This document shows, piece by piece, positions 7,101-33,300 of a stretch of DNA of 64,000 bases. The first letter of the stretch is position 1. Every line of letters starts with the position of its first letter. This DNA is from Lingula anatina (lineage: Eukaryota > Animalia > Brachiopoda), in the NCBI GenBank assembly GCA_051362555.1, contig CM120642.1, positions 8,494,001 to 8,558,000 on the forward strand, written 5' to 3'. A program made the position numbers and the translations under genes. The notes below the pieces were generated by a model. That model saw nothing but the letters and a program-made list of their open reading frames with translations, was not told the DNA's origin and did not search any database.

Positions 7101-10100
7101 GCCATATTGTAATTTTTCTCCACTCATCTATCACAGATAGGTCAGTTCGAGTACTCTCATATATTCCATGGAACGATTGCCAAATCCAAATTCGTGTTTT
7201 AATTTTAACCATCTTATGAATCACTTACCGATATGGTTGTAGACCTCCTCGTCAACAAACCCGTCACAGTCGTTGTCAATTAAATCCCCAGCCACTGTGA
7301 TGCTTGGGTGACATGGCTGAAATAACGCGAACAAAACTGAATTTCTGTTTTACCAATCGTTGCAGTCACAGCAAAACCTTCGGTGGGGCTACCTCAAAAC
7401 AAATGAGTGCATGTTGCAGTCAAACCTAAAACTATGTTATAGATGCAACGCGATTCAGCTAAGTGTTTCCACACATACATGCATCATTCTGAGCTAGGGG
7501 TGTTATATACCTGTATGACGTTTACACAATGTCCCATTCATAAGCAGTATGAGGCATGCGTGTATGCAAGATACAAAACGTTAGGTTGCTGCATATTTTC
7601 GACATCCGCTAGTTGTAATTTATCTACAAGTGTTATAATTATAATAAGGTAACAAGGAACTTTTCTTATAACCCAAATAATGGGAACAGGTATACTTACA
7701 TGCGTTATAGTATATAACGCCCCAGCAGGGAAAGCATGCCCGACGTTATCTCCATAACCATACACAGAGACTAGAACTCCTTCCTGTGGCTGATCATTAC
7801 TTATATAATGTGTTCCTCTATCAACATTTGCGGTGGTTGCGTTCAGTTGTAGCATGGGCGTTCTAATAGACAGGTCTGAATTCCAGTGCACTTGCCCTCC
7901 ATCCAACGTTAAGGTTTTGAGGCAATAGGAAATTGATATCATGCTGACGCCGTTTAAACGCGATCCAGCCGAGACAAAGGTGACGTTTTTGGGGGTCTGT
8001 TCAAATGGGGTTGCCACTGCAGTATCTAACCCCCCTGTTGTTGTTCCATCTTGGAAGTGATGCCTGCAAGACGTATGGACACCAACCAGAATTGGGTCAT
8101 GCTCCCGTGCGGTAATGGTCAGGAGAGACTGCGCATACGTTTCGTACGTAACATGCCTCTCGAGCGTTTCTGATAAAGTTGGTTGATTATTCCCTTGTGC
8201 AACGACGTAATTCTGTTCAGAGCGACTGGACAAAATCACCAAGGTCCAATTGTTGCTGGCCTCTGAATGCCTTGGTGATATGGTGTACATTCTTCCCCAT
8301 GCTGACATCGGCGGCATCATCTCTAGGACGATATCTTTCGTGGAGCCATACTGTTCTCTGGCACCGCTTATCACGGCAATGGGCCTGTCAGAATTGATAA
8401 AAGTTTGAGTTAAAGAGAACGCCTTACTGTGGATGTGAAATGTTTCATACTTGGACAGCCTGATTTCAAGCATACGGTGCCTTGTGAACTCGCTACCATT
8501 GTATAATACAAAAACACCCTCTACCTTTGGCATGGTGATTCGAACCCTGGTGTCGTTTTCCACTGCAATGATGATGATTTCCGAATGCTGGGAATAATCA
8601 TCATTGTGCCGTGAGTCAATGGAGCACAAGGCGACGTATTCTTGGCCTAATACATCAACTGGAAGGGCAAGGTATCCGCCGGAGAAACCGGGTCCTTCTG
8701 CGAGTCCAAATACTGCAATATCACGGGAACTTTCAACTAAGATGCTGTCTGTTGCAAAACCGGTCGCGTTCGACTTGAAAAGCGCTCTTGGCATGCTCAC
8801 CGTAGTCTCTTTGCCTTTCTGGACACTGACTGATACTGGTGGATAGTCAGGGTGCAATGGGGTGGACACTCGGACATCAGCAGGGGTGTCACTATAACTT
8901 GTCATCTTTAACATCAAACGCACATCTTTTTTATCGTCCGTGCAAGTGAAAGACGACAGTAGTGCGTTTCCAAAGAATGACAGGACGAAGCTTTTACCCA
9001 TGTTGTCTCTCTTCCCTGAAAGAGTGGTTGAACGGTAACAAGAATCGTGCTTTTGCAATGATAGAGGCATAAATTGTTTACGATATCTTTTATAACTAAT
9101 AGTAACTAATATAGTAACCACTGCAACTAGTAGTATTTCACTTATGTACTTGATATAAGAAAAACAATGCACCACGCGCGATTCATGTTAGACATGTTCG
9201 CCAACACAGACTTGTGAAGGCATGCACGCACACACGTCTACGCTAGCGCATGATGCTTCCGCACCACGCGTTCACAGCCACTCACACAACTGCCTCACAC
9301 ATTATAACTGCTAGCGTGCGCGCGCGTGCGTGTGGATGTGCACTGCTGCATTATATTGTATTATATCACTGGTAATCGATCTAACCAACATCTTCACGTT
9401 AATGCACGAACCTTCACTGGCCGCTGCTGTTCGGCTTGCTGGCTCACACGTGCAGTACACATAGGCCCTGTCATCTCCACTGTTGGTGCAGTTACCGTTA
9501 CCGTCACAAAGGCAATGGCAAGGTGCTGAAATATTAAAGAAAATATACAAAAAAAAAAACATTCTAAGATATAAAAATATAAAACAACAATAAAACCATT
9601 CAAAAATAAAAGTACCCGAGAAGGCACTGAAAACTGGCAATAGAAATGATCCCAAATTTATTGTCTTTAAACCTTTGTATTGGCTAGATCTGAAAAGCAA
9701 GTACCGGTACATCTAATTTTGTTGCATCTTCTTACTCGTAATGCAGGTCAATGCTGCGTGCATTCATTATGAGAAACAAAATTGTATCATTTTTCAGATT
9801 CATAAAAAATTATGAAATATGGATCTACTTACAGCACTCGAAATTCCTCTCATACCAACCAGGTTTGCATTTGCACACTGTCCCAAAAGGTTCGTCATGG
9901 ACACAATGGCTGCCATATACGTAACTTGCGCAATCCAGGTCATGATTGCAATCCATTCCCAGCACTGGACGAGATGACAAAACAATTGAACATGAAGAAA
10001 ATCAAATTAAATGATAACCAATATAACCATTTTTAATACCGTGCTAGTAGCTGTACACAACATGGTTTATTTTAAGCAAAATGATGGCCGACCTTTAGAC

Positions 10101-11803
10101 AGTTAAACGACAAAGACTTAATACCAAATATACCATTTCCAAAGATGAATCTCAAATGTCATTTTAGTTACTGCCATAGAAAGTAGTGTATCGAAGGGAG
10201 TATCGAAGGGAGATTATATTCCCCATATAGAACAACACATCAACATACGGCAATGACACTGTAGAAGATACTATAGAGTAATATAAAACCATTGACGTTA
10301 GATTCCAAGTATTTATATTGAAATATTATATAAATATTATGATATCATATTGACATTTAATTTATTCATAAAAATTTTATATAGCAATATTTATTTTGAG
10401 AAAATATAAAAAAACAGCTACAGTTGTTCATTGTATTTCAGTCGTGTTTGTACAAGATTTGACAAGGTTGAAAACGTTAACAGATATATTGAATAATAAA
10501 GAGAGTCTACCTTTCTCACAGTTACCCATATGATCCGGTGCAAACCCAGGTCTACACTCACACCTCCCTCTCCTACACACACTGTTGATATCAGAACCCG
10601 AGCATATGCAAAATTTTGATGGATCGATTTCTTCATCAAATGCTGAAAAAAAAGAGACCATACACGCTTTCCATTTCACAACGACAGTGTTCCTTACAAT
10701 CTACAGGTAAATTGGTGACAGTTATAATAGCAATCAAATTGAATTCTTTAGCAACAATGAATTGTTTTGCTGATCAAAGTACCTTCGAGTTTCAGGCCCG
10801 TTTTTCTAAACAAACCAGAGATTGCTTTGGTAATCGCTGATAGGATACTTACTCTGATAATAACCGCCTGAACCACTGGTTTCGATAATTATTGTAATTC
10901 TATCAGGCTCCTCCGCATCGCCTTCAAAAGCACTGACCGTCAAGTAATAGGTATGCTGTCCCTGTAAGCGAGCACGAATCTTAGAATTTAATCTTACATC
11001 ACCGTCGTCGTTTCTAACAATTATGCTTGATGGCAGAGGTTGTGACGTCATAGGATCAATGGCGCCATATAATTCCATGAAGGCATCACAGCCTTCATAA
11101 CCCAACGAAATCCTAATGTCGATGGTGTCTTGTAGAGTGAAACTGTACACAGTGTCCCCTTTTGATAAGACGCTCCGTCCACCTGTGTGTATGTTTGGGG
11201 CGTACTTATTGTACTTCGTGTATACGTCATATGTATGGTTGGAAACCAGTACTCCAAGATCCATGACAAGAACTGACAAAGAAAAGAAGAACAATGGTTT
11301 TTGCTTCAACGTATTATTTACAACGGTAAAGGGGAGTGTAATGCAGCAAAGTGGGAATGATTTACATCTTCTATCATGTGTAGGCATAAGGAATATAATA
11401 AATGTGCTGAACTCTGCCAAAAATCAGGAACTGATTATTACAACGACTTAAATCAAGGTCCTCAGCCTGAGCAGAACACGTCGGCCCCTTATTACAAGGT
11501 GACATTTTACTGTAGACTAACACCACGCCGCTGCTAATTTGACACGTCACTATTTTTTTGGTCCAAACAACATCTACATGGCTGATGTGAGAACCATTCA
11601 GTCCATTTATACCCGCTATATACACTCAAGGAAAAAAAATGCAACACTCAGTTTTGGTAGTTTTTGGGGGGCAGAATAATTTTATTTTGAGATCTGCCAG
11701 GTTTATATGAACCCTACATCAATTTCTAATCCTGAGACCAACTTTTTTGGCATTTACACATTTTTGAGTCCAATAACACAACCAAACAATAGAGCACCCC
11801 CTC

Positions 11804-11834
<31 letters not shown>

Positions 11835-14800
11835 AAGCAAAAGTGGCAGAAATTGCATCATACTGTTAATAGTTCACGTGACCCCACGTTGGCATCCTGG
11901 ACATTCGTCGCCTCATGGATCGGCATAGTGTCTGAGTTGATCCTGTGGAATCGCGGCCCATTCTTCCACCAGTGCCTCCCTCAGCTGCTGCCGAGTTTCG
12001 GGAGGATGTTCACGACGGCGGACACGCAAACCGAGCAGATCCCAGACATTTTCAATGGAAGTTAAGTCCGGACTGAGGGCTGGCCAAGGCAGGATATGGA
12101 CGTCATTCTCCTCCAAGAGGTTGGTGCACACACGAGCCACATGGGGTCGCACATTGTCGTGCTGGAATAGAGTTCCCGCCCCAACTTGGTCCGGAAAAGG
12201 TAGCACCACAGGCCTCAGGATCTCATCACAATAACAGAGACCATTGAGATTTCCTTCGATGAAAACCAGGTCTGCCTGGTGCTTTGCCGATATGGCTGCC
12301 CAAACCATGACACTGGGACCGCCCCACCGGTTCACTTGGCGCACACAAGGTTCGGCATACCTCTCCTATACACCCGATCTCGGTCATCTGCTCTGAAGCA
12401 CTGGAACCTTTTCTCGTCGCTGAACACGACTTAGGACCACCTCTGCAAAGTCCAACGATGATGTGCAGTGCACCATTCGACCCGAGCTCGGCGATGTTGG
12501 TGGGTGAGTACTGATCCAACATATGGCCGATATGGTCGGATACTGTCAGCGCGGAAGCGATTACAGATGGTTCTGGCCGACACTGGCCTGTGGTGTGTCC
12601 CAATGGTAGCGGGCCGGAACCTGTCACGGAGATGTGCCAACCGGTTGGCGCGGTCTTGTGCAGCGATCGTTACACGGGGGCGACCAGTACGAGGGCAGTC
12701 GTTAGAGGAACCAGTGGCATGGTATCGCTCAGCAAGACGAGTAATGGTGACAGCAAGACAACCCTGTCCAGCTTGGAGCATGTCAATAGCTAGATCTCTC
12801 TCTGCTTGCGACAATCGTGGCATTGTGAAGAAGTGTGTTTTTGGCTTCATTCTGGTGCCCTTTTATAGAGAAGGCTTGAACACAATTAACCAGTGATAAA
12901 ACTCAACTCTGAGTTTCAAACATGAGTTTGTGTGCATAAACCATCCTGAAATGCACGGTTTATTGTCCTTACAATCAGTCAAGCGGAACCAAGAAATCAG
13001 TTAACCTGCCTTCATCCTAACTTAGAGTGAAATCATGATGCTAAGCCATTTTTCTAAATACACTCGTATTTCTTAGGAATTTTCGAAAATTAAAATGTTG
13101 CGTTTCTTTTTTCCTTGAGTGTATATATGATAACACACCCGTCGGTGCTTGTGTAGTATCATCCAACTCTTACCCGTTTCGCAGATCGTTACATGCGTCG
13201 ACACATTCACAAATGAATTAAGTGTGTTTAACCCCGTAATATGCAGATCTCTTATCGGCAAGTACCGTTTATCGTCTATCACAGCTATATCCGCCGTTGC
13301 TTGTCCAGAATGACAGTTGCAGGCAAATCTGAAACAATTTTAGGGGAATCAGATGAGCTATACACACCATCTTTATTTCATTTCTGTGGCATTTAACGTT
13401 TTTGTTATGTACCAGCACTCGTAGATATAAGATATTTCACAGTCAATGCTGCAATGCTGTGAAATATCTTATATTTCACAGTCAATGCTGCAATGCTGTG
13501 AAATATAAGATATTTCACAGCATTGCAGCATTGACTGGCTTCTACGAATTGTAACATTGGATTGACAAGAGGCATGATATATTGTAATCCACAGCGCATC
13601 GAAATTTTGAGAAACATATTGGGGATTTTCTTCGCATTTCTTGCAAAATTGTTAACTAAAATAATTTTACAACTTTAACTAAAACAACTCGTGCATAGAT
13701 GGTACGAGTTCTGACGGAAAATAGAAGAAACTAGTGTCCAGATATGTTTTATCTAAAAAAATTAACTGTTTGAATCTACAACTGGATGGATCAAAATGCA
13801 CACATTGGTTTGCTAAAATATTTTGGATCCATGCCAATTGTAAGACATCCGGGTTACCTGCTATCCACACACGTATTCTGAAAGGTTGCATTACATGCGC
13901 AGTTTGAACTATTGATTGGTGCTCCCCAGCCCGTGATTGGGTAACCCTGGCGCGAGGTCCACCACGTGCTGCCCCCAAACACGGTCGCATTGATGCAGCT
14001 GACTCCAATATGCTGAAAAGAAATAGGATTAAGCTCATAATGCATAAGACCATAGGAGAGTGAAAATATGCAAAGTCATACACTCATAGTTCTGACATTC
14101 GATAGATCAAAATATTGCCGGTGTGGCGTGACGAAAGCGTTCTACAGTATGCCATACGCGTGTTCACTGTTTGAAATTATTTAGTCAGTGCTGGCAAAGA
14201 GATACCGAATGTTTTGTGCCGGTAAGCTTACATTCCAAATGACGGACAAATTTTACGACAGCATTCAGATTCAGACATCGTATTACTGGTTACCAGGTCG
14301 GTTCAACTCTGCGGGGGATTCTCGTTGTGGTGAAATCAGTCATATCAGCTAAATTGTCTGACACGCCTCCTCGAGCAGCTAGGGGGTAATTAAATATATT
14401 TTTGCTTATTAAGCTGATTCTTCTGATTGCACTTTTAAGCGAGAATCCCCGCGGAGTGGGACCGATCCATCTAGTACGATGCGTAAATTTGAATGCGTCA
14501 AAAAAAAAAAAAAAAAAAAAAAGAAAAAAACAATTACACGGTGCATTGTGCTGACTGTCATTCTGTGCCCCAGGGTTACCTGGGCGGCGCTTCTCTTTAT
14601 AGACATAATTGTACAAAGTCTAAAAGAGTGCACCTTTGGTGGCGAATGCAACTTCATGTTGATAAAATTACCCAGAAAGTCACAAAAATATTACGACCTG
14701 CTTCATGTGTTTCATTTAAGTGATATTTACTGTACTACCGGTAACAGCTAAATTCAAGACACCTTACTGCAGTATAATGATATATACGTACACGATTATG

Positions 14801-16332
14801 TAAATAACGTACTAACCTGTTCGCAATTTAATGATGCATCCGTTATGGCGGACAGAAAGTTTAGATTCAGCCTTTTTTCCTTATACGAGTAAGCTAAAGA
14901 CACATTGCTGTTGTTTGAAAACTGATAATCTCTGTCACCGTAAATCGTGAAGTCGTTGTATTCTCCAGTTTCCGCCTTTTCACATCTGGCGTAAATGGGT
15001 GGAACGTTTGGTGATGGATATATCCAAGCTTTCATTCCAGTCGGGAATACATCGTGGCACGTTCTGTAAGCATCTTTGTCAAATACGTCATTCATATCTG
15101 AAATAAAAAAATAAATGCAGGACTGAAACGATAACCCTGCGAATGATCGAATAAACAGGGGTGATCTGAACAAAATTTCGTGATATTTGCAAAACGACAA
15201 CCACGTGCTCCCGTGCTCTGTACACAGCCCGTGGGATAAGTGACGTAAGATACTATATTTTTACGTGAACGTAAAATACGCAAACAAAAAGTGAAATTCA
15301 ATAAGTAAGTCAGCACAATTTTAAATTAAAACAATGCTCGTTTCGCTAAAATAGGCCTTTTGATCTTGTTTAACACATGCTAGACACATTCGGATTAATG
15401 TGCACTATTTCATACACGTTGGTAATTTAGCGTGCATGCAAAACTCGACTTTTAAAAAAATATCCATAAGATAATTGCCTACCAATTTCGCAAACGAATT
15501 GGAATTGCATTGTGCATTTTGTGTCAGTTAACTGCCCCAAATATAATGTCACGCAACTGGTGCTGTTCACCCATATCTTTGGAGATATACCTGAAAATAT
15601 AGTAGGTCAGATGTCAGACTTGATCTCGGTTACCAAAGTCCACTTGGACTGCAATTGCAACGAGAGAAAGAGAGAGAGAGAGAGATGGGGGGGGGGGCAT
15701 TTCTTACTGGCAATATGCGTATGACTGCCGATATATTGGTCCATGAATGAAAGCTCTGCTTGAGTTTCAAAATCTACCAGATTGCCGCCATCATTAGCAC
15801 AGATCCCTCGAGCCATATCCCAAGTAAGTTCAGTCATATATAACTTGTAACAGGAAGACCTGTGTCGAAAGTTGTAACCCACGGGACAAGGTCGATAATT
15901 GTTCACACAGACTGGAACATTGTCGTCTACTAAGTGGGAATCAGGAAAGCACAGGCGCCTGTCATTCGGTCGCTTGCACATAAACCTCCCTTCCTCGTTG
16001 CAATTTAGCGGTTTCCACACCCCGTGTGCTTCCGAATCGTAAAATAATCCGGCACAGTTGTAAGCGACTTCTTCAGAAGCCATGTTCCGATATTTAACGC
16101 TGTTGCCGTCAGTCCAGTGAGATTGTCCGTCAAGGCCGATGTGAAACCATTCATCAGTAGTTGGCGAACTAATGACATAGATAAAGATACACATTAGTGG
16201 ACATGACTTTTTAAAGGATTGGTCAGCATAAGTATTAAATACGCTACACTCTAAAAGTCAAAGTGGCACAGAACTGTTTGACTGTGTGTGTGTGTGTGTG
16301 TGTGTGTGTTTGTGTCTGTGTGTGTTTGTGTC

Positions 16333-22256: not shown

Positions 22257-23660
22257 CAGTGTCAGAGAAAAGCACGCTTTATTTCTAATATGTTCATCTA
22301 TTTGACGATGCGAAAGTTTGTTTAAATAAATAAATACATAACTACTAAATAATAACTAAAATAAGAACCAACCACCCCTAACAGTCTTTTAAAATGGAAA
22401 GAGGGCCTCAATTATTTTGAAAAAAATCCCCCCCCCCCCTCCTCTACACTGCACTACTCTGGGTACACTATATGCGAACATATAATGGATAAGCCTTAGA
22501 AAATAAAAACGAATAAAAGAACAAAGATTCATTTCAAAGTTCGTCCTTAACATTTGAAGAAACAGTCAATTCATATCTGTAAATTTCCTTCAGTCCCTTA
22601 GCGAACCCTTCTTTTTCATCTAGGGCGATGTCCTGGAGCATGCCGTTAATCAGGTCCTCGCGGGGGGCGTACCTGGCCCACCCCATTGCTTCTTCGTAGA
22701 ATTTCACCGTCTCCGCGACGGCGCGTTTCCATGGCGTCGGTTTCCATCGCAACAAATCTAATGCTTTGGAGATATTTATAGCACCTTTTGTCACGGACGG
22801 ATATAAATATTGAGACGAGCCTGCTAGATATGTTAGATTGCCTAATCCCAATTCAATCGATATATCATTCAGTACAATTGGTAGAGTTAATTTTTCTTTA
22901 AATGCTAGATTGAAAACTTGGTCAGTCACACCGCTCTGGTCTTTCATGTTTATTATCTCGACGATGAGGCTTGCGACATCCTCGGAGTACACCATGCTTA
23001 TTGGAATAGCAAGGAGAAAATCAGGAACGGCTACTAGCTTGTTAATGTATTGTCCTGCCAGCCTTATCCACATCTGATACGTCCACCATCTGTGCGTGTT
23101 ATCCCGGGGGCCCATGACGTCAGGGAGGCGGAAAATAATAGACGGGAATCCCCCGTTCTCACGCGCGCTTATCAGCTGTTCCTCGCACTGCAGTTTTTGA
23201 TAACCGTACGAGTCCTTGTGCTCGACGTTTTCAGGTCGAAAGCATTCCATTTCTTTTGTCGGGTTGTTGTGGAACTTTGGGCAGACGTCATAGACCGAGT
23301 CTGTGCTGATGTAGATGTATAATTTGACTTTATCCTGTAATATTTTCAGGGCTTGATCTACGGCGTAAGGGACGTAAGCACTGAAGTCGATCACGGCCTC
23401 GAACTGCTCTACACTTTTCACAAACCCCCCAAATCCCGTACAAAGACCCAAGGGTTCTTCTCTGTTGCACGCAAAATGTCTTACGTACGGCCGTATCGTT
23501 ACAGCGGAATCCCAATACCATGTCCCTCTGTTTACTATTGTGATATCATAAAAATCGCCATATCGTTGTAACAACCTCCCAACTGTGGCTGAGCCCATGA
23601 AGCCATTTCCGCCGAACACCAAGACGTGTTTCTTTGGATTGGAGCTGAAATCTCCCTCGA
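20644..23660. repeat. Partner copy of the segmental duplication (paralogous to 1..2560)
   Basis: Colinear similarity with 1..2560. Also contains an internal ~130-bp tandem duplication (about 21590-21850) shared by both copies. Confidence 0.95.
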
Positions 23661-23778
23661 CGTCACCCCCAACGCTTTGTGGCGTTACGTCGCTGTCTTC
23701 CTGGCAACGGATGTCGCATACGTGCAGCACGACGAGAAATATGACAGCCACAAAGACGAGGTAACCGGCTCTCCACAT
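22534..23778 (-). CDS. Intronless atypical SDR / NAD-dependent epimerase-dehydratase family protein (CSP41-like), with signal peptide and KDEL (ER lumen)
   Basis: 414 aa. Signal peptide MWRAGYLVFVAVIFLVVLHVCDIRC; Rossmann GGNGFMG; NRG; YIYISTDSVY; catalytic-type YGYQK (YxxxK); RLPDVMGP; C-terminus VKDEL*. Confidence 0.92.
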   Translation of the reverse strand: MWRAGYLVFVAVIFLVVLHVCDIRCQEDSDVTPQSVGGDVEGDFSSNPKKHVLVFGGNGFMGSATVGRLLQRYGDFYDITIVNRGTWYWDSAVTIRPYVRHFACNREEPLGLCTGFGGFVKSVEQFEAVIDFSAYVPYAVDQALKILQDKVKLYIYISTDSVYDVCPKFHNNPTKEMECFRPENVEHKDSYGYQKLQCEEQLISARENGGFPSIIFRLPDVMGPRDNTHRWWTYQMWIRLAGQYINKLVAVPDFLLAIPISMVYSEDVASLIVEIINMKDQSGVTDQVFNLAFKEKLTLPIVLNDISIELGLGNLTYLAGSSQYLYPSVTKGAINISKALDLLRWKPTPWKRAVAETVKFYEEAMGWARYAPREDLINGMLQDIALDEKEGFAKGLKEIYRYELTVSSNVKDEL

Positions 23779-25951
23779 CGCACTACAGTTAGTTGTCTAT
23801 TTCGAGTTTGACCCAATTTTGAAAGTGCCGGAGGTATCGGATTACTGCCACGCACAATAACAAGTTTTCAAGGCTTTCCCCGTTTATACGGTTTACAAAT
23901 CCCTTTGTGTATGCTCTTCGTCCTACAGTATCCTCCAGTTAGGTTTTCCTTCATCAATCAGTATAACTGTACTGTTTATCATTGCAGTGCGTATTTTAAA
24001 TATCCAATAAAAGCCTGCAGCATACTTTTCATAAAATCAGACCAGCGTGCCTACGTGACTTTTTGGAGCAATTTTTCTGCACGTCAGCCGTGTTCCAGTG
24101 TGCCCTTCTAAATGAAGTCACAGCTGTGTAATTTCATAATCGAAGATATACGCAGCAGAAAGCTCAAACGGTTAATTATTTTCGACCTGAATTGTATATC
24201 AGATGACTTGCTTTAAACCCGGGGCGTCCCTTATAATTAACGCGCATATGCAAAACGGGATCAGTCCGACGGGACGTACACTCTCTTTATCAAATGCAAG
24301 TTGTAGTTCAGTTTGGTGATATCTGAAATGTTCGACAAAGTAGGCGTATAAAAATTTTTGGCAACTTCATTCTCAAGAAAAGGTTGTTTAATTATGATCA
24401 CCAGAAGTTGTAGAAAGAAGAGTTTCAAGGTCAAATGCGGTGAATCATGTCATTTACTGTAACAGTGTAATTTTGTTAAAATGGTTCAAAGTCAATTAAT
24501 TGGCGAGTGAAAAAAAACCTCTTGATCTCAACCTTATAATAAAATCGAGAATAATTTTGCTCGTAGTGAATATCAGATATTACAGAGAATATCGTTGTCA
24601 TAAAATTTTTATTTATTTTATTTATTTTGCGAATTGAAAAGCTATCAAAAGCGACCGCATGAAACCTTCTTTCAAATAAAAAAAGGCAAAAAATGGATGA
24701 TAATGACAGACTGAACGGGAATTCATGACGCACTCGTGACACTCATTGTCAAGTTACTCTGAAGTTAATTTTACCAAGCAGAGGACCGTAAAAACAATTA
24801 AATTAATCTTGCAGAATCTTTTACAAAATCTGACGGCCATTCAAATAAGAACTATGAAATCCAGCGCTCATTCAGTAGAGTTAATTTACATGCTAATGGG
24901 AATCCAGACTCCTGCATTGTAGCGATATCTGAGGTTTTGGAACTGAGAAAGAAAAAGTTTTCGAAATAAATATATATCGATATTCTCGTGTTTTTTATCC
25001 CCTAATAATAACACGGTGAAGAAATTGTTACTAGTCAAAGTCCAGCTGCTAGTTTATAGATTGAGTCAGTCCTCACTCACCCCAATAGTCTTTAAACCCC
25101 CCTCCAAATACTGGTGTCAAGTTAAGCTGAGAACGCGCTGAAGATCTACGCTAGCTACAACAGACCGCGTCGAAAGGTTATTTATCTACTACATGTACAT
25201 CCGAAGCCAAACCGAAAAAATTAACTGTCCAGCAAAAAATTAAGCTTCTCCTTGAAGTATCCAGTATTACAGATGTATAACCAGTCTGCGAAGCGATTCT
25301 ACCTAGTCACTGCAGTCACAGTTGAAGTGAACCTATGTGTGTAGAAACCTTTCGCTTACATAAAACCGGATACCTTCGAGCACAGTTCCCCAGTGAGTCG
25401 CATTTAAACATATACGCTCACTATTTGTTAATTATCTCTCCCTGCCCCCCCCCCCAATTTATTTACGTCAAGGACCCACGAACAAGTGCATTACGACAGA
25501 GCTCGTTAAAGGAAATACTAGTAACACATATCATGTTTTTATCTGTTCAACCAGACACGCTGGTACACGTTTACTTTTTACGATGCTATATTATTCACTT
25601 GGACGGCGTGTTGGGGCCAGAATGGGTTTGACACGCCAGTGGCTCAGTAACGCAACTAAAACAACCACATTAAGCAGCAGGATGTAAGTTTAAAGATCGT
25701 CTCAACTACCGCAACGTGTAATTCCGGGAGTATTGCAGTTCTCTAACTTGGAATTTTTTACTGGACTTTAATAATCATAACATTGTTATTAACAATAATA
25801 TTTATAAACGCGCTTCACATATTGGTTTGTGTATAATATGAAGATGAACTTTAAATTCAAAAACATTCCAATTTTAACAATTACACCTATGCCCGTTTTT
25901 AAGGAAGAAAATTCGAAGCACAAAGCAGTTTTTGAATGATAAATTCATTTA

Positions 25952-27190
25952 CTATTTGTCTTTTGGTGCTTTAAATCCATAGATTTCTGCCAATCCCCTG
26001 TAAAACGCCTCTTTGTCGTTCTTCGCTACCTCTCTTAGCATGGTCTCGATGAAGTCTTGTCGCGTCGCAAAAGAATCGTCTCGCATGGCATTTTCATAAA
26101 ATTTCACGATATCGGCGAGTGCTTCCCTCCAAGGAGTTGGACGAAAAGCAAGCAATTTCTGGGCTTTGGTTATATCCACCGGGCCCCTGTGAACAGAAGG
26201 GAATACATACGTGGAAGACGGTGTTTCGTCCAAAGTCGCAAGCCCTCCGTATCCTAGATTAGTCATGTATTTATTCAGGATACGCTCCACACCCGGTAAG
26301 GCTCCCTCATGAGATTTTTCAGCCACGATTTCATACGGCTTATCCCCCAAGCCGAGCTCAAGGGATATGTCCCGCAGTAAGGTCGGTAGTGTCAGATGAA
26401 CATCGGACGCCAGATTGAACGCTTGGTCTATAATTTGGTCGCGGGGCATTTTCATGTTGATTATATCGGCAATCACTTTCCCCACGTCTTCGGAATAGAC
26501 CAAACTGATTTGATGCGTCTGAAGAAAGTCAGGCACGGTAACGGGGCGGGAAATATACTCTCCAAGTCGAATCCAAAGCTGATACACCCACCACCGGTAG
26601 GTATTCTCACCTAAGCCTATAACATCGGGAAGCCGGAGGAAAATATACGGAATTCCCGGGCCGTCTGTCGAGGATCTCTGCTTTACTAGCTCTTCTTCGC
26701 ACTGCAATTTTCGATTGCCATAATCGTCTGCCTCGGCTAGGCGCTTGGCTTCGTCCTCAGCCTCGGGCCGGACAGCGTCTGTCTCTCTCGAGGGGCCGCC
26801 GTGCTCCTTCATGGCGGAAACCTCGTAAACAGAATCGGAGGAAATGTAGATGTATAATTTAGCCTTTCCCTTCAGCAAACTGACCGCGTTTTCAATCTGG
26901 CGGGGCTGGCAAGCGCTAAAATCGATCACGGCGTCGAGTGATTTCACTTGTGAGAGATATTCCATAAAGCGAGGGCAGTCCTCCAAAGGCCGTGTCCTAT
27001 CCCATACTATGTGTCTAACGTGCGGTTTAACAGATGTTGCCGTGTCCCAGTACCAGTTCCCCCTATTTACAATGGTGATATCAGGCAACGACCCACTATC
27101 CACAGCCTCACCCAGTAAACAACGGACAGCAGCTGCACCTAGACACCCGTTTCCACCAAATGCTAGAACAGTTCGTCTCGTTTCTTGCAT
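25952..27190 (-). CDS. Intronless atypical SDR / NAD-dependent epimerase family paralog lacking a translated signal peptide and KDEL
   Basis: 412 aa. GGNGCLG, NRGNWYWD, YIYISSDSVY, YGNRK, RLPDVIG and YRWWVYQLWIRL are colinear with the upstream paralog; ends KAPKDK*. Confidence 0.92.
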   Translation of the reverse strand: MQETRRTVLAFGGNGCLGAAAVRCLLGEAVDSGSLPDITIVNRGNWYWDTATSVKPHVRHIVWDRTRPLEDCPRFMEYLSQVKSLDAVIDFSACQPRQIENAVSLLKGKAKLYIYISSDSVYEVSAMKEHGGPSRETDAVRPEAEDEAKRLAEADDYGNRKLQCEEELVKQRSSTDGPGIPYIFLRLPDVIGLGENTYRWWVYQLWIRLGEYISRPVTVPDFLQTHQISLVYSEDVGKVIADIINMKMPRDQIIDQAFNLASDVHLTLPTLLRDISLELGLGDKPYEIVAEKSHEGALPGVERILNKYMTNLGYGGLATLDETPSSTYVFPSVHRGPVDITKAQKLLAFRPTPWREALADIVKFYENAMRDDSFATRQDFIETMLREVAKNDKEAFYRGLAEIYGFKAPKDK

Positions 27191-27771
27191 CTTTGACGTA
27201 TTATTGTCAGAAGTATTAGCACACAGTGTGATTGTCAGTACTGATAGAGTGAATAAAAACGAGGTTTTCTGCGCAGCCTTGGTCTGCGCTGCGGGTCGTT
27301 TTCTATTGGTTCAATATAAAATATGTGTGCCAAGGTGGTGTCAAGGCTGTACATTATATTTTTCTTAAACCACGGATAGCGCGTAGAACAAAAGACTCGT
27401 CGTGCTGTATTAGACATACAAACACGTCATGTACGAATGCGTTCCACGGTCTGTTGCACTCCCGTGACTTACTTGTGTATCAGAGGCCGTGGTTTAAGCC
27501 AAGTACAACACTCGTCGTGGAGCTGTACGTGAATTTACTCGTGTATTGTCTCGCCTGCTGCTCGGCAGTATACTCGTAGTATTTCACGTACAGTTCGGCG
27601 ACTCGTATTGTATCTATCGTATCGTATTGTATCTATAAATAAGCGCGGGTCAAGTTACGTTTACACGTGCAAACCAGATTCGGGTTCACCTGTGATTAGA
27701 ATCTACCGTCACGCCCCTGAAATTCATTTGTTCCCCGGTCGGACGTTAGTCTCAGCATGAAGTCATGGGAC

Positions 27772-27940
27772 TGTAACGGAACTGAGGGTCCATGTAACAG
27801 AAAGTCCGCCCTCCATACAGTTATAATGGTTAGGGTTAGTCTGACCTAAGTGGGTCAAAATCTAGGGCGAGGCTCACCTGTACAAATGAATGGGAAGCGG
27901 ACTCTCTGTTATGGGGGACTCTTGTGTCACGAACGTTACA
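27772..27940. mobile_element. Possible MITE with TGT...ACA termini
   Basis: Inverted pairs tgtaacg/cgttaca and taacagaaagtccgc/gcggactctctgtta; internal ggttagggttag. Confidence 0.45.
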
Positions 27941-28863
27941 CCGGTCCACGGTTGTGTTGGTAAGTCCAGTGTAAACCTGGCAAAACTGCCCTATGTGCAT
28001 ATTTACTGGTCATACACATTGATCACGAGTTCACAAAATTTGTTCAGAAAAAATTTTTGAACTAACATTTTAGGTCTTATCAAATTTATGCCCTTTTGAC
28101 ACAAAAGTCTGAGTAGTTATGAATAAATAAATCTTTCAATTTCTCTTAATTTGACCCAAGAGAAGTACGTCCGTTAAATGTCATGAGCATGTATCATACT
28201 TTTATCTTAAAGGGATTACAACCCTTCATTTAAGTCCTTCATAGAGGGCTACCTTCCGAAATACATGTAACCTCTCAGTTTGTAATAATCTCACAGTGCT
28301 GTTTTGTAATAATCACTGCGGTCCGTTGTAATAATTACTCAAGAGATTTTTACAAAATAAAAAACGCCCTTAAAAATTCGCTTGAATGTCGGAACAGATT
28401 CATTAACCGGCGTTAAGTATGGGTAAATCGTCATTTACCACAGGAAAAGTCGTTGTACGGCATTTTTTCCACAAAAATGTTATCGCTTTAATAGACCAGA
28501 TCTTAACATTTTCACCAAGTGGCTAACCTTTAAAATGAAACATGAACCGCCTGGAAATGAACATTACACGTACATATATGTGTTTTAAGGCGCCGCACGT
28601 TTTCAGGAAAACTTAGAGCTACATAAGCATACATTTACTGAAAGATAAATAAAAGATAATATATAAATGGCCCTCAAGAGCTCAGGAACTAGGCAACATT
28701 TTATGGGTACATTAGGGGAGAAGAGAGTCAATATATGTAGTTGTTTCTTGTCAATATTATTTTGAGTGTATTTTCGTTTCTACATACCAAAAGAGACTAA
28801 ATTTCTCACTGTACTTTCAACTTGGGAGATGATCCACCTGGATATATTGTGTGGATTTTCTTA

Positions 28864-29045
28864 GGTCGCACTCACGACCAAAGTTGATCCGCCAACTAAC
28901 AGATCGGCGGATCAAATATGGCCGACCCACTTGAAAGCTTGCCGCGTGTTCCCCGTAGGGAATCTATTCAGTTTCTATTGTGGGAATGATACGTCCAGTT
29001 TTCTACCATGTTTGATCTGCGGATCAACTTGTTCATAATGTGCAC
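28864..29045. mobile_element. MITE, possibly PIF/Harbinger-like
   Basis: Inverted arms aagttgatccgc...gatcaaatatgg and ccatgtttgatc...gcggatcaactt; TTA on both flanks. Confidence 0.55.
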
Positions 29046-30315
29046 TTATTTGGCTTTTATTTTCCCCATTGGGTTTTGAGAAATAAATTTCTTTACAGTC
29101 TAGCAGATAATACCAAAATATAAAAAAATCTGTTCCATGCTAGTATTTGAAATATTCTGTTTTAATGAAAATGATGATAAAATAAACACAGTTAACCTTC
29201 AAATTCAAAACTCGTCAGCCTGAATATAGCAGAAAGACCTGCATTTTATAACTGTAAATGCAATACCCCATTTACATTGTAATTAGAGGTAAATCATCAC
29301 ATTTCTCACAAGAACTTTAACCTTAATTAAAAGTAAATTAAGTTTTGTAAGATTTTCTTAACCTTTCACTTCACTTGCTTACAGTCCTATTTGCATCTGA
29401 TTACTGTCACAATAATGGTAAAAAGTAAATTTATAATTATTACAAATGACAAACATTATCATTATTTTACAAATGTGAAAAAACTTAAAAGAAATGACAA
29501 TGAAACATATAATTATGATATTGTTATAACAAAGTGACCTGTGCAGATCAACAACTTTTGACTGCTTGAACATTTCTCATTACATTCCAAATAACAAAAA
29601 TGCTAATATACAAAATAATCAAAAGCAACATCAAGGTGTGAAAATATGAAACAAACTAGTTTTAACATGTTTTTGAAAAATTGTAAATCCTAGGACTTTG
29701 CTGAATAAAGTAAACTGTTTTAGATTTTACATAAAAATAATAACCGCTCATCCATGTCTGATAAGAAAATGAAGGACATTCTGGAAATGATACTCCAGTT
29801 GAAATACAGCAGCTGTCACATCTTACTTCTAATTAGCCTTTAGTCAGTGGTGAACACTGAATTACCTAAACTATAACACTTTTTTGAGGGCAAATGCTCT
29901 TTCTAATATATCCACAGTCATGTATATTTTCAATCATGATACATTTATATCATAAAATGCATTCACACTCTACAAAAAGTCTCTCTAATCTTTTATAATA
30001 AATCTTACTTCTGTGATGCATTTACTGCTTCTTTTCAATGTGACTATCAACAGTTTAATCTCTTATTATGATATTTACACAGCAAAAACTACCAAGTATA
30101 CTTTGCCAAAGGTCACTATAACAATGGTATTATCAAACATTATGGTGTCCCTAATATTGTCAATGATTGCTGTGACCCTGGTATTGCCAATCAATATGGT
30201 GACTGTGACACGGGTAATCATATTTCATATTTCTTGAAGTGATACAAAATTAAGACTTGTGTGTTCCAATCCACTGTTTTCTTAGACATAGCTTGGTTCC
30301 ACTTCTTCACTGCCT

Positions 30316-33300
30316 TCATTTCTTAGACTTCTTGGATCTGCTGAAGGGTAGTCATGTGAAAATGTTTCAACAAAAATGGCCCACTTTAAGAATTTTTTTC
30401 TTATTCTTTGACTACTTTCTATTAAGACTATACGAATCACATTCCACATACTTCACATTCTGTTACAAATCACTTATTTTTAAATTTATCACTTTATGCA
30501 ATGTATCACTTGCATCAAATGATCAGTCACAAATACAAATCAAGTTTTATTAAAATCTACGTCTGAATCTTCTCTTCTATTTGAAGGTGTCAAAAGGATA
30601 CTGCTTTTCTGCCTTCTTTTCACTTTTATCCTTTGTTGTCTTTTCCTGCAAATAAATGAGGCAAATTACTAACTAACAAACAAACGTCCCTTTTCTATTA
30701 TCTACTGATAATAACTTTATATCTTCACACATTTATGCATAGGCACAAGATCCCGTAATCAATCTTCAAGTAAATGTTGAGTTTATATCCTCAATGCAAA
30801 AAACTCACAGAAGCAGTACAGGGGATAGGGCATGGAATTAGGAATAACCAAAATACCAAAATGTCACTCTGCCTGAAACTCACAGATTTCCCTCCATCTT
30901 CTCTTCCTGATCCCTTTGGAGATTTATGCCTCTCTTTTTCCCTGTGTTCTCTCTTCTCCTTAGTGACTGATACAGCATCCCCTGATCCGTTCTGTTTGGA
31001 ACCAGACTTGACTGAAAATAAATAGAATTTTTGTCCATTAAATGATTTATCAAATCAAATACATTTTATCTTTCATCTAAGGGACTGGAGTCATTTTTTT
31101 TTTATTGCTGATAACCTATCTTTCACAAAAGAGATGATATCAAATCATTGCTTTACAAAAGAAGAAAACCAAAGAAAAAATTAAAGAAATTAAATAAAAA
31201 AAGTTTAAATAAAAGAAATAAACATTACATAAAATGATCCGCAACTTTTTAAATACAATTTAAGAATTTTTTTTTTATTTTTCTGTTATTATTGTCATTA
31301 TTTCAATATGACTGAATGTGATTGGACTTGGTGAATGAATTGGTTGATGGGAGAGAGGGCGGGGTCCTGTCTGTTACCCCTTCCAACTGTTAGCTAATGC
31401 TGAAGCTCTATATAATCAGTAGTCTGAGTAATGACAACATTCTGGCCCTAAACATTTGCCTGCAAAAAGGTAGTATTACTTCTATTTTTCATCACAGTTA
31501 ACAGGGCCTATTAACCTTCACATTACTGCAGAGTTTTGCTCTTTACCTTCATAACAAAGGAAAATAATTGATTCATTCTTTTTTTATTTAGAATATATTA
31601 TTATGTAAATGAACCCTTATGACAATCCTTTTATTCTCTAACATATCTACCTTCATATTACCTTCCATTCTTTTACGCAAAAAATTATTGATTCGAAATA
31701 TACTGTTATGTAAATGAACCCTTATGACAACCCATGTATTCTTTCACAATTGTCAGGGTTTTTATTTGATTTTTGCCTGCATATCACAGGCAACTAAGCA
31801 ATTATAACATACAGACTAAGTATGTCTTTATTATTCAACACACTTATACAACCAAATCAAGCAACTTGTGGCTAAGCCACAGCACTAAAATGTGTATTAT
31901 TAAAATTCACCAGGCTGACCTCTAATTTCACACATTCACCAAAGCCAACACCAGTGGCCTGTTTACACAAAAACTTGAGACTGCAAGTTGATGTAAAGCT
32001 TTAACCCAAGATAAATCAGTAGTAGTCCAATTTAATAAAACAAGATGTATACTGCTTCAAAAAGACAAAAACTATAATATTTTAGCAGGCTAGGGCACAA
32101 ATTTCCTTTTATAACTTTAAAGGTAGAACAAAATTTTGGTCTAAAAGTCCAAACCAACTTTCGGTCTGACACCAGCTTAAAGGGGTGTGATCCAGATTTT
32201 TAACATTAGAGCCTGGGAACATACCAATCAGTGTACTATACATGGAAAAGAACTAGTTTGTTAGTTAGAAAAAATTTCGAATCAAAATATCTCACCTGTA
32301 GGAGAGTCCTGCTCACCCCTCTTCTTCTTGCTGTCCAACCTGTCTTCACTGTCATCTGGGGAGTAATCCATGGTCTGTGGACAGAAAACATGCATTTACA
32401 TCATAAATATTAAGCTTCATAAATAAATAATAAGTTATAGTTTTTATAATTTTCACTTAATAAAATATTATCTTATACTTTCTTTTGCTATACACAATCT
32501 TTCATACTGTCACAATTACTCCTAAAACTGTTACAAGAAGAAGAATGACAAAGAGTTCCATTACAATGGCAAAAATTGGAAGTCATGCTGTACACTGTGG
32601 TTTTTAAGAGACATTTATTTAATAATCTGCTTACCCTTTTCCTTTCTGACTTTTTATCAGATTTTCTTCTCTCGCTGGGTGGACTCTAAACATAATGAAA
32701 TTCAATTTTGCAATATTCTGTTGAAATGTTGTGGAAATATTATATATACCTCATGACATCTACAACAAGTGCATATACAACTCCCTCTTTTGAAAAAATC
32801 TTTCTTTCCAAATGTCAAATTGAACTGTAGTTGTTTCTTTTATAATTTACTATGATCATATTGTAATACTAGATTAGATTCATTCCAACTTTCTTACAAA
32901 TATGTCCAACTGAAATTTTACAGGTCACGCCGTCCCTGTTTAAAAATGTGAACATCTCAGGTTTCTATTTCCTTTGTTTTCAAGTCTTATTCCTTTGTCA
33001 ATAGATATAATAAACAAAATTGTCGAACAAATATCATATTTACATCAATGTGTGCACACAATGCACAAGACTCATCAAATTTTAATTATAATGCAATAAA
33101 TTAATTGGAAGTGAGAAACCATGAACCCAACATGGAGATTCAGGGTCCTAACCTTGCTTCTGGATTTGTCCTTGCTGTCCGCGTAGCCTTGGTCCTGTAG
33201 AGGAAGAGGAAGGTCAACACCACATCATGGTATGAACACAGGTCAACACCATATCGTGGTTTGCACACAGGTCAACACCACATCGTGGTTTGAACACAGG

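What the first reader, a model, noticed from the sequence alone, without database searches (positions are those of the whole stretch)
25949..27280. SDR paralog with remnants of a signal peptide and KDEL: apparent ER-to-cytosol relocalisation after duplication
Seen, 5' end: upstream of the annotated ATG (27190) the frame stays open. From an AAG codon at 27280, in context cagACC-AAG-G, it reads (K)AAQKTSFLFTLSVLTITLCA-NTSDNNTSK-M. One base change (AAG to ATG) gives a perfect ACCATGG Kozak start and a typical signal peptide. Seen, 3' end: AAA GAC AAA TAG TAA ATGAAT is two substitutions from AAA GAC GAA TTG TAA (K-D-E-L-stop). The neighbouring paralog ends AAG GAC GAA CTT TGA AATGAAT and has an intact signal peptide. 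The 412-aa ORF between these remnants is uninterrupted and keeps GxxGxxG and YxxxK. Inference: an ancestral ER-luminal enzyme duplicated and this copy lost both targeting signals while staying functional, giving an ER/cytosol isoenzyme pair. A CCAAT near 27305 and an Inr-like TCAGT near 27242 hint that transcription may now start downstream of the dead start codon.
Basis: partly seen in the sequence, partly recalled or inferred. Interest (0 to 1): 0.85.

Follow-up and report, generated by a model that had tools for sequence, protein, structure and literature searches.

The report
Lamp-shell enzyme copy loses ER address
In a lamp shell (Lingula), one of two old, neighbouring copies of an unstudied ER enzyme has no start codon for its export signal and no ER-retention tag, and its RNA reads begin inside the old signal sequence, so it likely makes a still-working cytosolic protein: a well-preserved case of a known process.

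Summary
Gene A (25952-27190, minus strand, 412 aa) is a Lingula extended SDR whose family is normally ER-luminal (114 of the 120 best hits end in xxEL/xxDL). AAG at 27280 is real: no ATG in three contigs from two DNA runs or in two RNA reads. The database allele ends QDE-stop, one change from QDEL. RNA reads taper off and stop at 27236-27239, with no splice joint, so the main transcript starts inside the old signal-peptide codons and lacks the AAG. The remnant is decaying (a frameshift in one lineage), while the coding region looks constrained (4 of 4 read variants silent; allele differences avoid conserved columns, p about 0.01), though less than paralog B. A has also lost one cysteine of a pair kept by 134 of 139 ER-type but 4 of 44 signal-less relatives. 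Corrections: the duplication is ancient (about 50% identity) and the loss recent; 'isoenzyme' is doubtful, as A changed a near-invariant GPRD motif to GLGE. Slow decay is not excluded. Relocalisation of duplicates is a known process; this is an unusually legible case in an uncharacterised family.

The parts
25952..27190 (-). Gene A coding region, 412 aa, intronless extended-SDR (epimerase/dehydratase fold) without signal peptide or KDEL; allele of L. anatina LOC106173431
   Evidence: 95% to P0001; pLDDT 90.6; transcribed on minus strand
27191..27280 (-). Non-coding remnant of the signal-peptide codons (AAG in place of a start, hydrophobic core, spacer); frameshifted by a 5-nt insertion after 27238 in one lineage
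27236..27244 (-). Probable main transcription start; Inr-like TCAGT; RNA reads end at 27236-27239
   Evidence: X12 depth 16 to 4 to 0; two X18 reads end at 27238
27305..27309 (-). CCAAT box about 65 bases upstream of the inferred start (function untested)
25949..25963 (-). KDEL remnant: Lys-Asp-Lys-stop-stop here, Gln-Asp-Glu-stop in the database allele
26204..26320 (-). About 35-aa in-frame insertion in A relative to B (residues ~290-328), predicted mostly disordered; no splice joint listed
27002..27004 (-). Trp63 in place of the first Cys of the C63-C72 pair typical of ER-type members
26606..26614 (-). Residues 193-195 LGE in place of the near-invariant PRD
22534..23778 (-). Gene B, tandem paralog, 414 aa, signal peptide + KDEL, C-C pair and GPRD intact; allele of LOC106173432
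   Evidence: (PF01370, E 3.9e-14)
27360..27440 (.). Start of a high-copy repeat just upstream of the promoter; probably polymorphic; not part of the transcript
   Evidence: contig depth 15,000-24,000; three contigs stop matching at 27356-27369

Best explanation
Gene A is an old tandem copy of an ER-luminal extended SDR that lacks its signal-peptide start codon and its KDEL, is transcribed from a start likely lying inside the old signal-peptide codons, and likely makes a cytosolic protein that is still under selection but probably no longer does exactly what paralog B does. Shown: AAG shared by every haplotype seen; reads ending at 27236-27239; no AUG between there and 27190; intact frame in two full alleles. 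Inferred: scanning starts at ATG 27190, six residues before the first Rossmann strand, so no targeting peptide is made and the protein stays in the cytosol. KDEL then became useless and was hit first by a TTG-to-TAG stop, later by Glu-to-Lys in this allele; the luminal C63-C72 pair (a presumed disulfide) was released. B keeps the ER role, which would have buffered the loss. The chemistry is probably NAD(P)-dependent redox on a nucleotide-sugar-like substrate, with altered specificity (GPRD to GLGE). Whether the new start site or the dead ATG came first cannot be told; I lean to the start site.
For: Ancestral state: 114 of the 120 best hits end xxEL/xxDL; of 220 rows, 139 have both signals, 46 neither, 35 one; A sits among signal-bearing sequences, not in the old signal-less clade (99/99 support). 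No variant listed at 27278-27280 in X10 contig 1, X4 contigs 10 and 11, or two X18 reads; P0001 starts at the same Met. Start site: X12 stranded depth 16 (27150-27189), 4 (27220-27229), 0 (27240-27359); read arithmetic leaves no gene read with 20 or more unmatched letters; no joint at 27241 among the 8 joints listed over 22300-31100. Remnant decays: 5 of 8 substitutions amino-acid-changing, plus a frameshift. Coding constraint: 4 of 4 listed variants silent (silent share of possible changes 0.23); 4 of 21 allele differences in columns at least 50% conserved against 9.3 expected, p=0.013; none of the 12 shown indel rows falls in A (13 more hidden). Expression in 3 of 4 RNA runs at roughly 35-60% of B's depth. 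C63-C72 pair in 134 of 139 ER-type and 4 of 44 signal-less relatives; 5 of those 44 also have Trp at 63.
Against: No protein, localisation or activity data. A has twice as many allele differences as B (21 vs 10); rough omega 0.4-0.65 using non-coding divergence of other haplotypes as a yardstick, near 1 if the two alleles are only about 2% apart (published heterozygosity 1.6%). At stricter conservation cut-offs the avoidance is not significant (p=0.08). A misses 8 of 76 highly conserved columns (2 are the KDEL end) against a median of 2, including D195, kept by 99% of ER-type and 44 of 44 signal-less relatives; Pfam and NCBIfam no longer hit A. The start site rests on 16 reads in X12 and 4 in X18, of which 2 (probably one fragment) reach 27321. 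A is nearly silent in X16. The Cys contrast is not phylogenetically independent and no disulfide was measured.
Confidence: 0.62

Rival explanations
1. A lost its targeting and is a young, still-transcribed gene in slow decay (relaxed selection on the way to a pseudogene); the cytosolic product does nothing useful.
For: Seven single-base radical changes at conserved sites (F16C, C63W, Y94C, C125S, R194G, D195E, A237G); double the allele differences of B; no Pfam hit; near-silent in one run; redundancy with B.
Against: Frame intact over 1,236 bases in two alleles while one lineage has 2 indels in the 166 bases just upstream; 4 of 4 silent variants; differences avoid conserved columns (p=0.009-0.013); catalytic Ser/Tyr/Lys positions kept; confident fold.
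Confidence: 0.25
2. In tissues or stages not sampled, an upstream exon spliced to the AG at 27242-27241 (it has a pyrimidine tract), or a non-AUG start, still supplies a signal peptide, and A, lacking KDEL, is secreted.
For: The site looks like a 3' splice site and would give a phase-1 junction inside the hydrophobic core; up to 3 X12 reads could carry loose ends under 20 letters, and 20 loose-end rows were hidden; only 4 RNA runs, sampled at 6-25%, were laid.
Against: No read of X12 includes base 27240; depth tapers as at a 5' end; no joint; the X10/X18 insertion would put such an exon or a non-AUG start out of frame though X18 expresses A; loss of C63; B has no intron.
Confidence: 0.07
3. 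The remnants are chance patterns; A belongs to an old cytosolic lineage that never had these signals recently.
For: An old signal-less clade exists in the family, including a Ridgeia protein; AT-rich DNA passes the signal rule at 2.9% of positions.
Against: A groups outside that clade and keeps ER-type residues such as W46, Y47, P188, A368, Y404; the joint 5' pattern occurs at 0.2% of null positions and the DE-stop ending is an independent sign.
Confidence: 0.04

Closest known systems
Protein subcellular relocalization (PSR) of duplicate genes (Byun and Singh 2013, PMC3879971; abstract seen)
   Same: One duplicate changes compartment through a change in its targeting sequence and is retained.
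   Different: That survey covers Ks 0-1; here the pair is about 50% identical and the loss came long after duplication, with both signals still readable as DNA remnants and start-site evidence.
Arabidopsis PRX36/PRX72 (Liu et al. 2014, PMC4202327; passages and section 13 seen)
   Same: Secretory-pathway versus cytosolic paralogs tied to loss of one start codon and use of another.
   Different: There the authors infer a gain of cell-wall targeting and show it by GFP; here a loss, with a second signal (KDEL) and a presumed disulfide also lost, and no localisation test.
Signal-peptide losses in Enterobacterales orthologues (Honigschmid et al. 2018, PMC5952966; abstract seen)
   Same: Loss of the N-terminal region as a common route to a cytoplasmic form.
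   Different: Bacterial orthologues; no ER retention signal or transcription-start shift.
Extended SDR nucleotide-sugar epimerases/dehydratases (PF01370; T. maritima UDP-glucose 4-epimerase 4zrm, dTDP-glucose 4,6-dehydratase 8du1)
   Same: Fold (Foldseek E about 1e-15 to 1e-16; profile E 3e-17), glycine motif, Ser/Thr-Tyr-Lys.
   Different: Only 12-17% identity; no equivalog cut-off reached; the animal family has a signal peptide, KDEL and an NRGnWYWD motif; substrate unknown.

Membership tests
Extended SDR (epimerase/dehydratase, PF01370) | Rossmann fold plus C-terminal substrate domain | tested here: met
   AlphaFold2 pLDDT 90.6, pTM 0.90; top Foldseek hits are extended SDRs
Extended SDR (epimerase/dehydratase, PF01370) | Glycine-rich cofactor motif and Ser/Thr + YxxxK active site | tested here: met
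   GGNGCLG, S118, Y157, K161; the role of S118 is assigned from recalled GalE numbering
Extended SDR (epimerase/dehydratase, PF01370) | Direct Pfam match above cut-off | tested here: inconclusive
   B passes (53 bits); A has no hit at E 0.01; the family profile with A as first row matches PDB epimerases
Extended SDR (epimerase/dehydratase, PF01370) | NAD(P)-dependent activity on a nucleotide sugar | not testable with these tools
   needs an assay
PSR of a duplicate gene | Two paralogs from one duplication | tested here: met
   Tandem, same strand, 49-51% identical; age unresolved: A with Lineus 94/97 in one tree, A+B with support 44 in another
PSR of a duplicate gene | Ancestral location known and targeting signals differ | tested here: met
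PSR of a duplicate gene | Protein shown in the new compartment | not testable with these tools
   no localisation or proteomic data
PSR of a duplicate gene | Relocated copy retained by selection | tested here: inconclusive
   favoured but small counts and no direct dN/dS
ER/cytosol isoenzyme pair | Same catalytic and substrate-binding residues in both copies | tested here: not met
   PRD to LGE at 193-195 and other changes at conserved columns in A only
Pseudogene | Broken frame or no transcription | tested here: not met
   intact in two alleles; transcribed in 3 of 4 runs

The most novel reading that the evidence does not exclude
Promoter-first retargeting caught in the act: an initiator born inside the signal-peptide codons moved an ancient ER-luminal SDR paralog to the cytosol in the recent ancestry of living Lingula lineages. 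The copy then shed its ATG, KDEL and luminal cysteine pair, converging on an older cytosolic branch of the same unstudied family, and took a new substrate. The order of steps can be read from living haplotypes.
Probability: 0.28. Interest if true: 0.62.

Novelty: new member of a known kind. Interest (0 to 1): 0.45.

Why it matters
Most relocalisation cases rest on targeting predictions for long-diverged N-termini. Here the dead start codon, the decaying signal-peptide codons, the two-step decay of KDEL, the new start site and the loss of a luminal cysteine are all still readable, and haplotypes that differ by 3-5% let the order of events and the selection after relocation be tested. It shows that retargeting can come long after duplication. 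It also points to an ER-luminal extended-SDR family across invertebrates for which my searches found no paper.

Tried and rejected
No whole genome is held for this window, so a third Lingula copy or a member of the old signal-less clade could not be excluded; none is among the 120 listed hits (345 found). A search for shorter fragments found no other lingulid piece of A (31 hits, best full-region identities about 50%); the HMMER library gave only P0001 and P0002 above 50% among the 150 listed. I first read reads at 27412 as a long 5' UTR; one search showed they come from a high-copy repeat, so that was dropped. The repeat as cause of the new start site: rejected, since three other contigs stop matching at its edge. 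The 35-aa insertion as an intron: no joint listed and present in P0001. Read-through from THOC2: depth 0 at 28180-28767 in 4 of 4 runs. Glycosylation sequons do not separate ER-type from signal-less members (means 1.9 and 1.5; A has 0). No RNA holder was listed by index; raw RNA runs were laid instead. No Rfam match at 27300-29100. Earlier scan findings: nothing in 3 look-ups. Paper searches found nothing on this gene or family; subscription papers are not covered and no supplements were read. SignalP is not available; a simple rule was used instead. The 3' end was not seen in reads or contigs of other lineages.

Full report
Setting. The window is from a lingulid brachiopod: gene A (25952-27190, minus strand, 412 aa) is 95% identical to L. 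anatina LOC106173431 (P0001), and gene B (22534-23778, 414 aa) differs from LOC106173432 (P0002) at 10 residues. Both are single open frames lying in tandem downstream of THOC2. A and B are 49% identical.

Observation. The frame of A is open 30 codons upstream to an AAG at 27280 in the context ACCAAGG, followed by a hydrophobic run (best 11-residue Kyte-Doolittle mean 2.16; 29% of 120 family signal peptides score no higher). A crude signal-peptide rule is met at 2.9% of 118,612 null positions in the rest of the window, and at 0.2% when a near-ATG codon in a strong context is also required (rule set by hand after seeing the remnant, and passed by only 55% of real family N-termini).

Ancestral state. 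114 of the 120 best hits end in xxEL or xxDL. Of the 281 proteins fetched by then, 218 of 330-520 aa were aligned with A and B: 139 rows have a hydrophobic leader and an xEL-type end, 46 have neither (A and P0001 included), 35 have one (some of the last are probably mis-called starts). Signal-less members form old groups of their own, one with 99/99 support that includes the cluster of a Ridgeia protein. A is outside these. Its place is otherwise unsettled: with Lineus (94/97) in a 53-row tree, with B (support 44) in a 31-row tree. The A-B path is about 1.2 substitutions per site. So the duplication is ancient while the remnants are 1-2 bases from intact: the loss came long after the duplication.

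Is AAG real? laid two RNA runs and two DNA contig sets on 27150-27440. One X10 contig, two X4 contigs and two X18 reads cover 27278-27280, and no other letter is listed there, although neighbouring variants are. These haplotypes differ from the window by about 3-5% in this stretch (12 letters in 218, 5 in 147, 7 in 134). The remnant behaves as dead sequence: 5 of 8 substitutions would change the amino acid, and the X10/X18 lineage has a 5-base insertion after 27238 that breaks its frame.

Where does the RNA start? A is transcribed on the minus strand in X12, X15 and X18 (about 60, 60 and 35% of B's depth, read from the bins) and barely in X16. In stranded X12, depth is 16 at 27150-27189, 11 at 27200-27209, 4 at 27220-27229, 3.7 at 27230-27239 and 0 from 27240 to 27359. 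Two X18 reads end at 27238; two more, offset by 8 bases and probably one fragment, reach 27321. Of 57 X12 reads laid, 16 are gene reads and 41 repeat reads; the repeat reads account for the 37 or so with 20 or more unmatched letters, so gene reads carry no long foreign leader (my arithmetic; up to 3 could have short loose ends). None of the 8 joints over 22300-31100 touches A's 5' end. No ATG lies between 27353 and 27191, so the first AUG is 27190, six residues before the first strand of the fold. That leaves no room for a targeting peptide; a cytosolic location follows by inference.

Still working? For: intact frame in the window and in P0001; 4 of 4 listed coding variants silent (three, one; silent share of possible changes 0.23); the 21 allele differences avoid conserved columns (4 against 9.3 expected at the 50% level, p=0.013; mean conservation p=0.009; p=0.08 at stricter levels); none of 12 shown indel rows lies in A (13 hidden); Ser118, Tyr157 and Lys161 kept; confident extended-SDR model. 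Against: B shows the same test more strongly (0 of 10, p=0.003) with half the differences; rough omega for A is 0.4-0.65 on a borrowed yardstick, and published heterozygosity of 1.6% (PMC4595640, passage seen) would push it higher; A misses 8 of 76 highly conserved columns against a median of 2, and Pfam and NCBIfam miss it.

An independent sign of leaving the ER. The C63-C72 pair is kept by 134 of 139 ER-type members but only 4 of 44 signal-less ones, as expected of a luminal disulfide (inferred; the rows are not independent). A has Trp at 63, one base from Cys, as do 5 of the 44. It keeps other ER-type residues (W46, Y47, P188, A368, Y404), which fits a recent departure.

Isoenzyme? Doubtful. 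A turns GPRD into GLGE; D195 is kept by 99% of ER-type and all 44 signal-less relatives. In extended SDRs this loop borders the substrate site (recalled, not tested here). With F16C, Y94C, C125S, A237G and a 35-residue, mostly disordered insertion, this points to a changed substrate or to partial decay. When these changes arose relative to the loss of the signals is unknown. The closest solved relatives are nucleotide-sugar epimerases and dehydratases at 12-17% identity; the family's substrate is unknown.

Known kinds. Relocalisation of duplicates is established (PMC3879971, abstract; PMC4202327, passages and section 13; signal-peptide loss in bacteria, PMC5952966, abstract). L. anatina is known to be diverged among localities (PMC8146825, abstract). 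Searches (listings only, apart from those papers) showed nothing on this gene or on an ER-luminal KDEL-bearing SDR family; closed-access papers and supplements were not seen.

Verdict. Real, well preserved and better supported than a first look suggests: functional recent relocalisation 0.62, slow decay 0.25, hidden signal-bearing isoform 0.07, chance 0.04. It is a new member of a known kind. Interest 0.45.

Noticed in passing
family of P0002-P0120: An ER-luminal (signal peptide + KDEL-type) extended SDR is present across molluscs, annelids, nemerteans, chelicerates, hemichordates and amphioxus, with hits in cnidarians too; automatic names only, no paper found.
   Followed up: partly
P0168/P0295, P0091, P0100, P0105 clade: An older signal-less branch of the same family exists; Ridgeia piscesae has both a KDEL-type (P0066) and a signal-less (P0295) member, so an ER/cytosol pair seems to have arisen before.
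   Followed up: partly
window 27354-27191 (-), X10 contig 1: In the X10 lineage the +5 and -1 indels would bring the upstream ATG at 27354 into frame with A (56 extra codons, not signal-like). No reads cover 27330-27359 and 3 of that contig's 12 differences are unlisted.
   Followed up: partly
window 27360-27440+, 27772-27922, 28895-28941: Short high-copy repeats upstream of A, with many partly matching RNA reads; the first seems polymorphic; no Rfam match.
   Followed up: partly
window 30337/30340-30602 (-): THOC2 last intron uses two acceptors 3 bases apart (13 and 17 reads in X12), followed by a long 3' UTR to about 28900.
   Followed up: no
window 7538-16194 (-): Pieces of a probable multi-exon extracellular gene with C-type lectin and IgGFc-binding domains downstream of B.
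   Followed up: no
window 26204-26320 (-): A's insertion loosely resembles the helix before it, perhaps an old internal duplication; a few scallop-type relatives (P0065, P0103, P0108, P0113) have inserts of similar length there.
   Followed up: no
window 23769-23778 and 25943-25951 (-): Both genes have ATGAAT right after the stop despite 49% protein identity; chance or a shared 3' motif, untested.
   Followed up: no
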